A stretch of DNA of 63,965 nt, counting the filler, from Theionarchaea archaeon (lineage in GTDB: Archaea > Methanobacteriota_B > Thermococci > Methanofastidiosales > SZ-28-30): NCBI GenBank assembly GCA_018992565.1. It is 3 parts of 3 records of this genome, joined end to end, with 100 filler letters (N's around TTAATTAATTAA, not from the genome) between each part and the next. Parts side by side here need not be neighbours in the genome. Positions count along the whole stretch, not along the records: positions 21,530 to 42,954 come from JACVGW010000048.1; 2 more parts are not named here. One strand, written 5' to 3'. Positions 39,001 through 42,000 of this stretch are shown piece after piece. Made by a program: the position numbers. Numbering within the stretch: position 1 is the first letter of the stretch; each line of letters starts with the position of its first letter.

Positions 39001-42000
39001 NNNNNNNNNNNNNNNNNNNNNNNGGGACTACCTGGGTCTGCCGCTCGTAGTGGATGGCTTTGTGGGCACGGGACGGAGTGCTTTTACTGGCGCTGGAGTC
39101 TGGCTGATGGGTCATTTGAGACGCAGCCTCAACAGGTAACTGCAGAGAAACCACCTCGACGATTCGCGACCATGCGAATTCTCTTTCAGGATGAGTAGCT
39201 GATTCAGGAGAATTTATATGTATTACGTCAGTCCTTTGGAAAAATAAGGCACAATTTGAATTGATTCTTGAAAATAATTTTATTTACGTGAATAAAACTT
39301 CGGTTGAAGGATATTATAACATTGAGGCTCTAGAACCTGGAACTGGCATCAGAAGTGGGATGGGAAAATGAAAGCTCTTTCAAGCCACTGCGGATTTTGC
39401 GGCACATATATGTAGAATACTCTATTCTGGTGTGTGTACCACATGTGAGTGGCAACTTCTGGCTTTCGGATCCTGTATGTTCCCTGTTTTCTAGACCGCT
39501 GGATTCTCTACCACCCCCTTCCTGCCTTCTCTACCTCTACCATAAACCCTTTAAAAGGCAGAGCAAAATGGGAGCGTGATGTAATGAATGAACTGCCCGA
39601 CACCCCATCTACAACAGACAAGATTTTAGATAGTATTGCCCACATCTTACCGGAAGTCCAGCTACCGAAACGACCTGTCCCTATGAAGGAACGTCTCCTG
39701 TGGACAGGTGGAGTGCTAACGCTCTTCTTCATTCTGGGTGAAATTACCATCTACGGAGTTTCTCAGGAAGCCCAGGACTATTTTGGCTTTTTCAAGGCTG
39801 TTCTTGCCTCTGAAAGTGGTACTCTTATTACCCTGGGTATTGGTCCCATAGTTGCTGGAGGCATCTTCATGCAATTGTTTCAGGGAGCTGAGATCTTTCA
39901 TTTTGACCTGACTTCTCACCAGGGAAAAGCCAGATATCAGACCGCCCAGAAAATGCTGGCCCTCTTCTTGTGTCTTTTTGAAGCTGCTGTATACATATTT
40001 GCAGGTGCTTTCGGTGAATATGGATTTGGAAGAGAAGTCTTCCTGACTCTGCAGATAGGATTCGGTGCAGTACTCGTGCTCTTCATGGATGAAGTGGTCA
40101 CCAAGTGGGGATTTGGTTCTGGCGTATCTCTGTTTATTGTTGGAGGAGTGGCAAAAGACATATTCTGGAAGACTTTCAGTTTTCTCCCCTCATCTGAACA
40201 GGGAGGTCAGTTGATCGGAGCAGTCCCTGGGTTCATTCAATCAATTGTCAGCGGGGCTCCTGTACTCATAAGGACTGATTTGCCGGACGTGGTGGAGGTG
40301 GCAGCCACACTTCTCATCTTCTTGATTGTCGTCTATTCTGAAACCCTTCGGATCACCATTCCGCTGTCAATGGGACGATTCAAAGGGACCAAGGGAGGGT
40401 ATCCCGTCAGATTCATGTATGCATCAGTCATCCCTGTGATTTTTACCATGTCTGTATTTGGTACTTTCCAGCTGTTTGCAAGATCAATTGAGAACAGATT
40501 TCATCTTGGAATACTGGGACAATTTTCAGCGACAGGTCAAGCAGTGGGTGGGATCATGTACTATATTTCACCTCCCAGAGGTATTGACCAGGTGATGCGA
40601 GACCCCGAACGGGCTCTCATCTATCTCGTGATCGTGCTGGTGTTGTGCGCTTTCTTTGCTCGAATGTGGACGGGTTATGTGGGAATGGATTCAAAGTCAG
40701 TAGCCCAGAGAATTCAAGAAAGTGGAATGCAGGTAGCCGGGTTCCAGAGGGACATACGAGTCATTGAGATGATGCTTGACAAATACATACCGCAGGTCAC
40801 GCTTATGGGAGGAATTGCCGTTGGATTGCTGGCTATTCTGGCTGACTTCACTCATGCGCTAGGAACAGGAACGGGCATTCTGCTTGCTGTTATGATTACG
40901 TTCAGAATGTATACTGATCTCGTGAGAGCTCCCGATCTTCCAGCGTCAATGAGAAAGCTCTTGTCGTAGTCACCAGGAAGGAACGTTGAGGTAGCGTAAG
41001 AACATGGTTCAGGAGATTAGACTCCATGGACTCGTATCTTCATCAGGTGTAGTGTTCCCAGCCCAGTAATGGCATCTTCTCTCCATCAAGAAAGACGCCT
41101 TTTCCTGAAGTGACTTCTCCAATTTCTGTTCCTATCTCAGGATTAATATCAGAATCAGTGAATACCAGTTCATACTCCTCTCCACTCTTCAGAGCCCAGA
41201 GCACTGGATCTTCGCCCAGCATCTCGGCTTTCTCTTTCACTTCAGCATGGATGGGTATCAAGTCGGAGTAGATGGACAATGACACGGCTGAAGCTTCTGC
41301 GAGGTGATATACCTCAGAAGATAACCCGTCAGAAATGTCAATACAGGCATGTGCCTTCAGGGCCAACCCCTCCTTGATGCGGGGGTAAGGAGAGAAAATC
41401 TTCTCTTTCATGGCAGGAGTCGCACTGTCCATATTCTTGAGGCCCGCATACACCCGCCCCACGTCGCCCGTCACTCCCACCTTGTCTCCAGGTTTCGCCC
41501 CACTTCGTAACATGACAGTCCTGGAAATGCCGAGTGCAACCCCGGAGACAGATAGTTCTCCTTCATTCAGGTCTCCTCCTGCGTACAAACAGTGAAACTG
41601 ATCACAGGCACGGGTTATTCCTTTGATCAGGTCCAGGACAGGATATGGCTCAGGAGCAGTAATAGAACACAGAAAGTACTGGGGAGTAGCTCCCATTGCA
41701 GCCAGATCTGACAGGTTCATTACCACGGCCTTCCACCCTATGTCGGAAGGGGTCATTCCACGAGGGACATCGGTCTTTGCTACCAGCGTATCAATAGTCA
41801 GAGAGAAGAGAGAATCATCATGAGAGAACACAAATGCATCTTCACTATCAATGTGTAGCAGCTCTGTAATAGTATGAATCAATTCTCTTTCTTTCATGGA
41901 ATGGTCTGAGAAGAGGCACACTTAAGGGTTTCATATGAACCACAAATAAAAAAGGAGGAGCAGTCTCTTCTCAGGTAGTGAGAGAAGAAGCTCAATCTCT

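What a model noticed while it worked through the whole genome (the two positions that open the first line are those of the whole stretch)
39584..40969. Second, divergent SecY translocon gene outside the ribosomal-protein operon
Besides the canonical secY in the ribosomal-protein cluster (g02731, C153:613-1980) there is a full-length paralogue (g02321, 461 aa, 57% identical) standing alone after an 800-nt gap. I propose an accessory SecY channel for a subset of exported substrates, analogous to SecY2 of Gram-positive bacteria. Duplicate SecY genes have, to my knowledge, not been described in Archaea.
Evidence so far: Call 36: both have Plug_translocon+SecY, 57% identity over 440 residues. Call 58: of 133 genomes of the phylum only this one and sister species G033 (64% id copy plus its canonical copy) show two separate full-length SecY genes; G032 and 127 others show one (paired matches in one genus are two halves of one ORF) and 3 genomes of 53-69% completeness none. 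Ribosomal proteins are single-copy, contamination 1.6%; single SecE (g01236) and Sec61beta (g00453). Call 59: neighbours differ between G000 and G033.
(Added by a program. Inside this text positions count along the whole contig: they may not be those of the stretch shown here. "Call 12" and the like, gene names such as g00115 and contig names such as C1 are that model's own, and its searches are not shown. The text may have been shortened before it was handed on; [...] marks where a part breaks off. The agent that wrote the report below was given it as the finding of a first reader that could run no searches.)

Follow-up and report, generated by a model that had tools for sequence, protein, structure and literature searches.

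The report
Conserved second SecY channel in Theionarchaea
This sediment archaeon and its relatives keep a second, faster-evolving copy of the protein-export channel SecY, with its own promoter and an altered ribosome-docking surface, which looks like an alternative export channel of a kind I could not find described for archaea.

Summary
Window 39584-40969 (+) encodes a full-length 461-aa SecY, 56-57% identical to the canonical SecY that follows uS5-uL30-uL15 on another contig.

It is not a binning artefact or a recent duplicate. The same 3.9-kb piece carries the genome's only TrpRS and ThiL. Contigs from two other studies bridge the scaffold gap upstream. The public MAG DG-70-1 also carries both types.

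The gene belongs to a monophyletic paralogue clade (support 100/100; 27 sequence clusters in metagenomes) nested inside the Theionarchaea SecY radiation. It evolves about 2.2-2.5 times faster than the canonical copy but under purifying selection.

Pore ring, plug and fold are kept. Clade-specific changes concentrate on the cytosolic docking face. The arginine at the loop 8/9 tip (R in 91/91 canonical archaeal sequences; inferred equivalent of E. coli R357 and yeast R406) is Q in 23/27 and K in 4/27 paralogues.

A 19-nt TATA-like motif lies upstream in 5/5 paralogue loci. SecE, Sec61beta, SRP54 and FtsY are single-copy, and no SecA was found.

Best reading: an alternative Sec channel alpha-subunit sharing SecE/beta, with changed ribosome or partner docking. 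It is not a member of bacterial SecY2. Substrates and expression are unknown.

The parts
39584..40969 (+). secY paralogue ('secYb'), 461 aa, full-length SecY/Sec61-alpha
   Evidence: Phmmer gives E 1.6e-114 to P. furiosus SecY 3MP7 and 5e-98 to M. jannaschii 1RHZ, aligned end to end. AF2 model: pLDDT 77, TM 0.77-0.86 to Sec61/SecY structures.
39540..39558 (+). Conserved promoter-like element (TATA-like TTTAAAAG preceded by CCAyAAACC), 26-44 nt upstream of the ATG
   Evidence: CCACAAACCTCTTAAAAGC is identical in 4 of the 5 paralogue loci. The window's own copy differs at 4 of 19 positions. It sits at the same distance from the start in all 5, although synonymous sites are saturated. The core occurs once in the 2.8-Mb genome. 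Its role as a promoter is inferred.
39574..39580 (+). Shine-Dalgarno-like GCGTGAT (GTGAT conserved in 5/5 loci), 4-10 nt before the ATG
   Evidence: Complementarity to the 16S 3' end is recalled and was not tested.
40736..40747 (+). Codons for residues 385-388 (A-G-F-Q), the tip of cytosolic loop 8/9 where canonical SecY has P-G-F-R
   Evidence: R in 91/91 canonical archaeal sequences; Q in 23/27 and K in 4/27 paralogues. P385 becomes A in 25/27. This Arg is inferred to be the equivalent of yeast Sec61 R406 and E. coli R357 (passages of PMC2171681).
40397..40399 (+). Codon for G272 in cytosolic loop 6/7 (canonical RGRYP becomes RGGYP)
   Evidence: G in 27/27 paralogues. R in 25/25 canonical Theionarchaea and in 79% of 66 other archaeal SecY.
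40085..40125 (+). 41-nt stretch identical to the canonical secY of the same genome (MDEVVTKWGFGSGV)
   Evidence: It is the longest exact word among the 30 paralogue x canonical pairs tested. Contigs of public runs break here, and their loose ends read the canonical gene. Possible micro gene-conversion (inferred).
38924..39023 (.). Scaffold gap (100 N) upstream of the gene
   Evidence: Single contigs in runs X13 and X19 (two studies) bridge it, with 278 letters between.
41043..41921 (-). thiL-like AIR-synthase-family gene, convergent neighbour; single-copy anchor and conserved synteny partner
   Evidence: Pfam AIRS. Only one strong copy in G000. thiL lies downstream of the paralogue in the window, L099 and L101.
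41992..42918 (-). Tryptophanyl-tRNA synthetase, the genome's only copy, on the same contig piece
   Evidence: Pfam tRNA-synt_1b. Single strong hit in G000. 80% identical to G002 and 67% to G003.

Best explanation
The gene encodes an alternative alpha-subunit of the archaeal Sec translocon. It arose inside the Theionarchaea lineage (family f1 of the Methanofastidiosales-type order within Thermococci) and has been kept since.

Shown: it is intact, belongs to this genome, forms an old monophyletic paralogue clade, and evolves about 2.2-2.5 times faster than the canonical copy under purifying selection. It keeps the SecY fold, the hydrophobic pore ring and the plug. It has its own conserved upstream TATA-like element and lies outside the ribosomal-protein operon.

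Inferred: it assembles with the single SecE and Sec61beta into a second protein-conducting channel. The translocation pore is ordinary, but the cytosolic docking surface is remodelled and then held fixed: at the loop 8/9 tip PGFR becomes AGFQ/K, in loop 6/7 RGRYP becomes RGGYP, and the C-terminal tail is changed. Because the loop 8/9 arginine is the main ribosome and motor contact in yeast and E. coli, this channel should dock ribosomes more weakly or differently. It would then serve a distinct set of clients, or a post-translational or separately regulated route, with expression uncoupled from ribosome synthesis.
For: Belongs to the genome:
- TrpRS and ThiL on the same 3.9-kb piece are the genome's only copies.
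- TrpRS is 80% identical to G002, in line with 84% for the canonical SecY.
- Contigs from two other studies bridge the N gap to the upstream genes, with even depth of 11.7-12.8 in X13.
- The stretch is held by 20 DNA runs of 7 studies.
- G002, the L101/L102 pair from one metagenome, and the named MAG DG-70-1 hold both types.
- The longest exact words between a paralogue and a canonical gene are in same-genome or same-sample pairs: 41 and 35 nt, against at most 26 nt in the other 28 pairs.

Old clade:
- The paralogues are monophyletic (100/100, stem 0.62) inside the family's SecY radiation (99/98). The 78-row quick tree gives 27 paralogue rows.
- 0 of 5 paralogue loci have r-protein neighbours; all 5 further canonical loci tested do, as does G000's own canonical locus L002, the query source.

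Constraint:
- dN between G000 and G002 is 0.277 for the paralogue and 0.112 for the canonical copy. Between G002 and L101/L102 it is 0.135 against 0.062. dN/dS is about 0.05-0.17, with dS saturated.
- 136 invariant columns among 23 paralogues.

Channel core kept:
- I86, V90, V181, I185, I286 and L434 align with the M. jannaschii pore-ring positions.
- Plug domain hit.
- TM-scores of 0.77-0.86 to Sec61/SecY structures.

Docking face changed:
- 10 of 14 strict clade-specific sites lie in the 25% of residues that are cytosolic (binomial P = 3e-4).
- The loop 8/9 Arg is replaced in 27/27 paralogues, yet the loop is nearly invariant within the clade as GFQRDIRVIE.
- In yeast, R406E abolishes ribosome co-sedimentation, and E. 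coli R357 is the same position (passages of PMC2171681).

Own promoter-like motif in 5/5 loci, unique in the genome.

Partners are single-copy: one SecE in G000, one Sec61beta in each of the 5 genomes searched, one SRP54 and one FtsY.
Against: - There is no expression or protein evidence.
- The neighbouring Arg (R389) is retained in 27/27, and 4/27 have Lys at 388. Charge at the loop tip is therefore reduced, not abolished, and docking may be nearly normal.
- The loop 6/7 site is R in only 79% of other archaea; P. furiosus has S and M. jannaschii has K.
- No conserved partner or cargo gene lies beside it. Neighbours are thiL plus a 340-aa cytosolic ORF in some loci and a 754-aa membrane protein in two.
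- Codon adaptation to the ribosomal-protein set is lower than for the canonical copy (0.733, 16th percentile, against 0.774, 79th). This is a weak proxy for low expression.
- One family member of another genus (G003, 91% complete) has only the canonical copy.
- The topology segments come from an AF2 model plus textbook topology, not from an experiment.
Confidence: 0.6

Rival explanations
1. A functionally equivalent spare copy. Both channels handle the same clients in the same way; only the regulation differs, with one copy tied to the ribosomal operon and one on its own promoter. The sequence changes would then be neutral drift under somewhat relaxed constraint.
For: The pore ring, plug and lateral-gate helices show no clade-specific change. 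R389 is retained and K occurs at 388 in 4/27. No partner genes are present. The rate is faster, which is compatible with relaxed constraint.
Against: The changed positions are fixed, not drifting. G272 is present in 27/27, no paralogue has R at 388, and GFQRDIRVIE is nearly invariant across a clade whose synonymous sites are saturated. Clade-specific sites are concentrated on the cytosolic face (P = 3e-4).
Confidence: 0.25
2. Same function as in the best explanation, but the copy is a xenologue. It would have been acquired by transfer of a canonical secY from a related theionarchaeal lineage (of the L103/P0042 type) rather than by duplication within the genome.
For: In the careful tree the paralogue clade is sister to the canonical SecY of the L103/P0042 lineage (88/84), not to the canonical clade of its own genus. 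L103 is a true canonical gene behind uS5-uL30-uL15.
Against: Support is below the starred level, and both branches are long (0.41 and 0.62), so long-branch attraction is possible. The 78-row quick tree left this node unresolved. L103/P0042 keeps the canonical residues: R at 388 is present in 25/25 canonical Theionarchaea rows.
Confidence: 0.3
3. Binning or scaffolding artefact: the second SecY belongs to another organism in the sample.
For: The genome is a MAG (88% complete, 154 contigs). The gene sits on a 3.9-kb piece joined by an N gap. The same-genus genome G001 shows one copy.
Against: The piece carries the only TrpRS and ThiL of the genome. The gap is bridged by contigs of two other studies. 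Three other genomes or samples hold both types. G001 also lacks TrpRS and ThiL, so that region is simply missing there. No paralogue locus has ribosomal neighbours, so the paralogue is nobody's canonical copy. The two copies in G000 share a 41-nt exact word and a derived Val.
Confidence: 0.02
4. A SecY-derived protein with a function other than protein conduction, for example a regulatory or scaffold subunit.
For: It has lost the otherwise invariant loop 8/9 arginine, and its codon adaptation is low.
Against: All six pore-ring positions, the plug and the full 10-helix fold are retained. It scores above the curated cut-off of the archaeal SecY equivalog model.
Confidence: 0.05

Closest known systems
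Canonical archaeal SecY / eukaryotic Sec61-alpha (M. jannaschii 1RHZ, P. furiosus 3MP7)
   Same: Full-length alignment (E 1e-98 to 1e-114). Same fold (TM 0.72-0.86). Plug domain and hydrophobic pore-ring positions are present. It passes the Pfam and NCBIfam SecY cut-offs.
   Different: It lies outside the uS5-uL30-uL15-secY operon and has its own conserved upstream motif. It evolves about 2.2-2.5 times faster. The loop 8/9 tip reads AGFQ/K instead of the invariant PGFR. Loop 6/7 reads RGGYP instead of RGRYP. The C-terminal tail is different.
Yeast Ssh1 (second Sec61-alpha homologue; 2WW9)
   Same: It is a second, more divergent alpha-subunit beside the essential one, and presumably shares the small gamma/SecE subunit. 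It is encoded apart from the main copy. In the passages of PMC2171681, Ssh1 buffers loop 6 and loop 8 mutants of Sec61.
   Different: The origin is independent, since the paralogue clade is nested in Theionarchaea. No second beta-subunit is found here: one Sec61beta in each of the 5 genomes searched. That Ssh1 has its own beta (Sbh2) is recalled and not from a call.
Accessory SecY2 of Gram-positive bacteria (TIGR02920 / NF009082)
   Same: The idea is the same: a second SecY beside the housekeeping one.
   Different: It is not a member. NF009082 scores 24.1 bits against a cut-off of 353, and TIGR02920 gives no hit. No SecA was found in G000 or G002. There are no SecA2/Asp/glycosyltransferase neighbours. 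The phylogenetic origin is inside archaeal SecY.
Second SecY family of ANME-1 archaea
   Same: It is an archaeal, conserved, divergent full-length SecY paralogue with no description found in the literature.
   Different: That one is reported as lying in tandem directly behind the canonical secY in a different phylum. This one is dispersed and its clade roots inside Theionarchaea, so the two are most likely independent duplications. I did not test the ANME-1 claim.

Membership tests
SecY/Sec61-alpha (PF00344; NCBIfam NF006341 archaeal SecY) | Profile score above the curated cut-offs | tested here: met
   PF00344 199.8 bits (cut-off 32.2) and PF10559 35.2 bits (22.1). NF006341 357.8 bits (300) and TIGR00967 269.6 bits (253.6).
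SecY/Sec61-alpha (PF00344; NCBIfam NF006341 archaeal SecY) | Ten-helix clam-shell fold | tested here: met
   AF2 model from a 105-sequence alignment: pLDDT 77, pTM 0.75. Foldseek TM-scores are 0.77-0.86 to 1RH5, 1RHZ and Sec61 structures over 434-463 columns. A first model from 23 sequences was poor (pLDDT 52) and was not used.
SecY/Sec61-alpha (PF00344; NCBIfam NF006341 archaeal SecY) | Six hydrophobic pore-ring residues and a plug segment | tested here: met
   I86, V90, V181, I185, I286 and L434 align with M. jannaschii I75, V79, I170, I174, I260 and L406 (alignment; the list of M. jannaschii pore residues is recalled). I86, I185, I286 and L434 are invariant, V90 is nearly invariant, and position 181 is Val or Ile in the paralogue clade. 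Plug_translocon hit.
SecY/Sec61-alpha (PF00344; NCBIfam NF006341 archaeal SecY) | Conserved arginine at the tip of cytosolic loop 8/9 (E. coli R357 / yeast R406) | tested here: not met
   Q in 23/27 and K in 4/27 paralogues, against R in 91/91 canonical archaeal sequences. Equivalence to R357/R406 comes from passages of PMC2171681 together with the alignment to M. jannaschii. The next residue, R389, is kept in 27/27.
SecY/Sec61-alpha (PF00344; NCBIfam NF006341 archaeal SecY) | Gene position behind uL15 in the ribosomal-protein cluster (typical context, not strictly defining) | tested here: not met
   0 of 5 paralogue loci have uS5/uL30/uL15 or the 173-aa post-secY gene nearby. All 5 further canonical loci tested do, and G000's own canonical locus (L002), from which the query proteins were taken, shows the same context.
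Accessory Sec system SecY2 (TIGR02920 / NF009082) | Profile score above the cut-off | tested here: not met
   NF009082 scores 24.1 bits against 353. TIGR02920 gives no hit at E <= 0.001.
Accessory Sec system SecY2 (TIGR02920 / NF009082) | Dedicated SecA2 motor and Asp/glycosyltransferase genes in the locus | tested here: not met
   SecA_DEAD (PF07517) gave 0 matches in G000 (88% complete) and G002 (84% complete). Pfam scanning of 33 neighbour ORFs in 5 loci found none of these.
Alternative translocon of the Ssh1 type (second alpha sharing gamma, with its own beta) | Second beta-subunit paired with the second alpha | tested here: not met
   One Sec61_beta match in each of the 5 genomes searched, including G000 and G002.
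Alternative translocon of the Ssh1 type (second alpha sharing gamma, with its own beta) | Physical assembly of the second alpha with the shared SecE/gamma | not testable with these tools
   SecE is single-copy in G000.

The most novel reading that the evidence does not exclude
The paralogue is a ribosome-uncoupled Sec channel. Its remodelled and then frozen loop 8/9 tip (AGFQRDIRVIE), loop 6/7 and C-tail would no longer be tuned to the ribosome exit site. They would instead dock an as yet unknown archaeal factor that drives post-translational export. That would give a first genetic handle on how archaea, which lack SecA and Sec63/BiP, export proteins after translation.
Probability: 0.15. Interest if true: 0.9.

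Novelty: new variant of a known kind. Interest (0 to 1): 0.62.

Why it matters
SecY is usually treated as a single-copy universal marker in archaea. In a control sample of 201 genomes of another archaeal phylum, 200 gave one match. Here a whole lineage of sediment archaea has kept a second, remodelled channel over a long time. That bears on three things.

First, it is a natural experiment on the universally conserved loop 8/9 arginine that couples the channel to ribosomes and motors.

Second, it opens a possible route to the unsolved question of post-translational export in archaea.

Third, there is a practical caveat for phylogenomics and MAG quality control. A paralogue that passes the SecY equivalog cut-off can be counted as contamination or picked as the marker.

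In DG-70-1 the protein was deposited as 'hypothetical protein', which fits with its having gone unnoticed.

Tried and rejected
Nothing was folded, so assembly with SecE stays an inference.
- Expression: no RNA holder was listed among the 23 runs returned. This gives no evidence either way.
- First AF2 model from the 23-sequence paralogue alignment was too poor (pLDDT 52) and was discarded. A 105-sequence alignment was used instead.
- Rfam scan of 38700-41100 at E <= 1: 0 matches, so no known RNA element lies in the long upstream spacer.
- Regulon idea: the upstream motif was searched across the genome. There were no hits with up to 2 mismatches to the consensus. At 4 mismatches there were 12 hits, of which one is the gene's own copy and the other 11 were not examined further. 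The core occurs only here, so there is no sign of co-regulated genes.
- Partner genes by synteny. A 340-aa ORF without a Pfam family lies between the paralogue and thiL in L099, L100 and L101, but it travels with thiL in G002 and was not found in G000. A 754-aa membrane protein is upstream in G002 and L100 but lies elsewhere (C8) in G000. Neither is a consistent partner.
- Genome-contig scan: among the paralogues it returned only G002's.
- The Theionarchaea description paper (DOI look-up) is not held. Cai et al. 2022, cited in PMC12806544, has transcriptomes but was not held or seen.
- Careful timing of the duplication relative to the L103 lineage remains unresolved (88/84). No AU test was run.
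- The codon-adaptation comparison is only a weak proxy. The reference set was a greedy ORF call on the ribosomal contig, and the paralogue ORF included 45 upstream codons.
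Full report
**1. The observation.**
The window is a concatenation of three contigs: C128 (1-21429), C130 (21530-42954) and C131 (from 43055). C130 carries three internal 100-N scaffold gaps. ORF 39449-40969 (+) is open from a GTG. The ATG at 39584 gives 461 aa, and M1/N2 are invariant or nearly invariant among homologues, so the annotated start is right.

The protein matches Pfam SecY (199.8 bits) and Plug_translocon (35.2 bits). It matches the curated archaeal SecY equivalog NF006341 at 357.8 bits (cut-off 300); the canonical copy scores 389.4.

The genome holds exactly two SecY matches. The other, G000:C153:613-1980 (-), 455 aa, lies behind uS5, uL30 and uL15 and before a 173-aa membrane protein. 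The two are 57.3% identical over 440 residues, or 56.1% over 453 ungapped columns.

**2. Is it in this genome?**
The gene lies on a 3.9-kb piece (39024-42954) behind an N gap, so I tested its membership in four ways.

(a) The piece also encodes a ThiL-like protein and TrpRS. These are the only strong copies in the 2.8-Mb assembly. TrpRS is 80% identical to the same-genus genome G002 and 67% to G003, in step with canonical SecY at 84% and 66%.

(b) The stretch is held (90% or more of sampled words) by 20 DNA runs from 7 studies. In two runs from two further studies, single contigs run from the upstream KaiC-like and PrimPol-like genes across the gap into secYb. They show 278 real letters where the scaffold has 100 N. 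Depth in X13 is even (11.7-12.8).

(c) All four laid runs break their contigs at 40085-40114. The loose ends there read the canonical secY, because the two genes share a 41-nt exact word.

(d) Among 30 paralogue x canonical gene pairs, the two longest exact words are the G000 pair (41 nt) and the L101/L102 pair from one metagenome (35 nt). All other pairs give at most 26 nt. In G000 both copies also share a Val and codon choices that the 9 other sequences lack. This looks like occasional micro gene-conversion, which needs both genes in one cell. It is an inference from a small sample, and the G002 pair shows no excess.

I put the artefact reading at about 2%.

**3. How widespread is it?**
Names given by the sources place the family in 'Theionarchaea' / 'Methanofastidiosia'. 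A review describes Theionarchaea as the former Z7ME43 group within the class Thermococci, living in anoxic sediments (passages of PMC12806544).

Among the 133 species genomes of the phylum, 130 have a SecY match. Only G000 and G002 show two separate full-length genes. That undercounts for two reasons.

First, the same-genus genome G001 (91% complete) lacks the paralogue but also lacks TrpRS and ThiL. The region is missing from the MAG.

Second, the 5.8-billion-protein collection holds 25 clusters at 60-88% identity (P0002-P0026) plus P0027. Together with the query these form a clade of 27 rows. Next to it stand about 25 clusters of canonical Theionarchaea SecY at 55-59%.

The named MAG 'Theionarchaea archaeon DG-70-1' holds a paralogue, deposited as 'hypothetical protein', and a canonical SecY. 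Two other pairs of NCBI accessions lie close together in number, which suggests, but does not prove, further MAGs with both. G003, of the other genus (91% complete), has only the canonical gene, and its thiL has other neighbours.

As a control for rarity, 200 of 201 genomes of another archaeal phylum (the one holding L024; genomes of 0.5-2.1 Mb) gave one match and one genome gave two.

**4. Origin and rate.**
A 41-row tree was built with IQ-TREE (LG+C20+F+G4, 1000 ultrafast bootstraps and SH-aLRT). It gives the paralogues as one clade (100/100, stem 0.62 changes per site). That clade lies inside the family's SecY radiation (99/98) and away from Methanofastidiosum and outgroups. The 78-row quick tree agrees.

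Within the family, the sister of the paralogue clade is the canonical SecY of a third lineage (L103/P0042) at only 88/84. The choice between duplication in the genome and transfer from a close relative is therefore open. L103 is a genuine canonical gene behind uS5-uL30-uL15.

Inside the paralogue clade the branching broadly mirrors the canonical clade: G000 with P0003, and G002 with L101.

Non-synonymous divergence is 2.2-2.5 times that of the canonical gene for the same genome pairs: 0.277 against 0.112, and 0.135 against 0.062. dN/dS is about 0.05-0.17, but dS is saturated and the ratio is rough. Twenty-three paralogues share 136 invariant columns. The gene is under purifying selection and is not decaying.

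**5. What is kept and what is changed.**
I aligned the protein to M. jannaschii SecY. The six pore-ring positions correspond to I86, V90, V181, I185, I286 and L434; the M. jannaschii list I75/V79/I170/I174/I260/L406 is recalled. All six are hydrophobic. I86, I185, I286 and L434 are invariant in the clade, V90 is nearly invariant, and position 181 is Val or Ile. The plug segment is recognised. An AF2 model (pLDDT 77) superposes on Sec61/SecY structures at TM 0.77-0.86.

I then listed columns where at least 80% of the 27 paralogues share one residue and at least 80% of 25 canonical Theionarchaea share another. Fourteen of these also have the canonical residue in at least 70% of 66 other archaeal SecY. 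Ten of the 14 fall in the 114 residues (25%) that face the cytosol, giving binomial P = 3e-4. The segments come from the model's helices plus the textbook N-in topology.

The sharpest change is at the tip of loop 8/9:
- Canonical I-P-G-F-R (I, P and R each present in 91/91 canonical sequences) becomes V-A-G-F-Q.
- Position 388 is Q in 23/27 and K in 4/27, never R.
- P385 is A in 25/27.
- R389, D390, I391, R392 and V393 are invariant within the clade.

In loop 6/7, RGRYP becomes RGGYP in 27/27. The C-terminal tail changes from S-x-M-F to P-x-L-P.

Passages of Cheng et al. 2005 (PMC2171681) state four things. The L8 tip residues G404-K405-R406-E407 of yeast Sec61 project into the cytosol. R406E abolishes co-sedimentation with ribosomes. 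Milder substitutions reduce affinity 2- to 10-fold. [quoted passage not shown] Mapping the archaeal G-F-R onto G-K-R uses that paper's remark on the M. jannaschii two-residue insertion together, and it is my inference.

Because the paralogue's loop is remodelled and then frozen, I read it as a changed docking surface rather than a decayed one.

**6. Regulation and partners.**
All five paralogue loci with DNA have an intergenic spacer upstream. All five carry the motif CCACAAACCTCTTAAAAGC 24-42 nt before the ATG, followed by GTGAT 4-9 nt before it. The window's copy reads CCATAAACCCTTTAAAAGG. The core occurs once in the genome. I read it as a BRE/TATA promoter and a Shine-Dalgarno site. No transcript data were available.

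The canonical gene overlaps uL15 and has no such element.

One SecE was found in G000; none was found in G002, which is 84% complete. One Sec61beta was found in each of the 5 genomes searched, and one SRP54 and one FtsY per genome. No SecA was found in G000 or G002. So any second channel must share SecE and beta.

The neighbours do not point to cargo or a motor. thiL lies downstream in the window, L099 and L101, with a 340-aa ORF of no Pfam family between in L099, L100 and L101. A 754-aa polytopic membrane protein lies upstream on the same strand in G002 and L100, but elsewhere in G000.

**7. Comparison with what is known.**
It is a member of the SecY/Sec61-alpha family by profile, fold, pore and plug. 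It fails one hallmark, the loop 8/9 arginine.

It is not a member of the bacterial accessory SecY2 family: 24 bits against a cut-off of 353, no SecA2, and no Asp or Gtf genes.

Functionally the nearest analogue is yeast Ssh1, a second alpha-subunit beside Sec61. The difference is that no second beta is present here.

On the literature:
- Full-text searches for SecY paralogues or copies in archaea and for Theionarchaea with SecY (0 papers) found no description.
- I read passages only of PMC6098224, PMC7987157, bioRxiv 10.1101/202358 and PMC8675477. None mentions an archaeal second SecY.
- The original Theionarchaea papers are not in the library, so I cannot exclude a mention there or in supplements.
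I did not test it. Since the present clade roots inside Theionarchaea, the two would be independent.

**8. Verdict.**
The 'accessory channel' idea is partly supported: the paralogue is real, old and constrained, and its docking face is altered, but substrates, expression and assembly are unshown. I rate it a new variant of a known kind and moderately to highly interesting.

Noticed in passing
G001 (same-genus species genome); This 91%-complete MAG lacks TrpRS, ThiL and the SecY paralogue together. The block secYb-thiL-trpS is evidently unassembled or unbinned there. This is a caution for presence/absence calls from species representatives.
   Followed up: partly
window 40085-40125 and G000:C153 (canonical secY); L101/L102: There are exact 41-nt and 35-nt identities between the paralogue and canonical secY of the same genome or sample, against at most 26 nt in the 28 other pairs. 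G000's two copies share a derived Val and codon choices. This is possibly short gene-conversion tracts, and it also explains why public assemblies break inside the gene.
   Followed up: partly
L099:3696-4883(-), L100:11381-12412(-), L101:11564-12580(-), L179:331-1482(-): A conserved ~340-aa, acidic, apparently cytosolic protein with no Pfam family (61-64% identical among the loci compared) always sits next to thiL. It was not found in G000 by tblastn.
   Followed up: partly
L017:4235-6502(-) and L100:7565-9826(+); homologue on G000:C8:43741-45978: A 754-756-aa polytopic membrane protein with a soluble middle part lies directly upstream of the SecY paralogue, on the same strand, in two lineages (69% identical). 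No Pfam hit at E <= 1e-5. It lies elsewhere in G000.
   Followed up: partly
window 35394-37346 (-): A 650-aa protein with an N-terminal KaiC-like ATPase domain and a long C-terminal part without a family. Its first 223 residues are 67% identical to a second copy on G000:C21.
   Followed up: no
window 37485-38786 (-): A 433-aa protein with a weak LigD primase-polymerase (PrimPol) match (29 bits, just over the cut-off). It is transcribed divergently from the SecY paralogue across the ~975-nt spacer.
   Followed up: no
window 31332-35309 (-) and 43003-44559 (-): Two large PAS-rich signalling proteins flank the region. One is a 1325-aa hybrid histidine kinase with at least six PAS domains and a receiver. 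The other, judged by eye from its translation only, looks like a receiver-PAS-HisKA protein cut by masked bases.
   Followed up: no
L101:3034-8112(+) and 8224-9537(+): In one metagenome locus the paralogue is preceded by a 1693-aa RHS-repeat/DUF2341 protein and a PQQ-type beta-propeller protein. Both are likely exported. They are not conserved in the other loci.
   Followed up: no
genus g9 of the phylum (e.g. G034:C1:201619-202998): In many genomes of one genus, canonical SecY aligns as two pieces within one ~489-aa ORF. This indicates an insertion of some 20-30 residues near residue 150-160 of SecY.
   Followed up: no
G290 (other archaeal phylum): This was the only one of 201 control genomes with two SecY matches at E <= 1e-40. 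It was not examined, and it could be another paralogue or a split gene.
   Followed up: no
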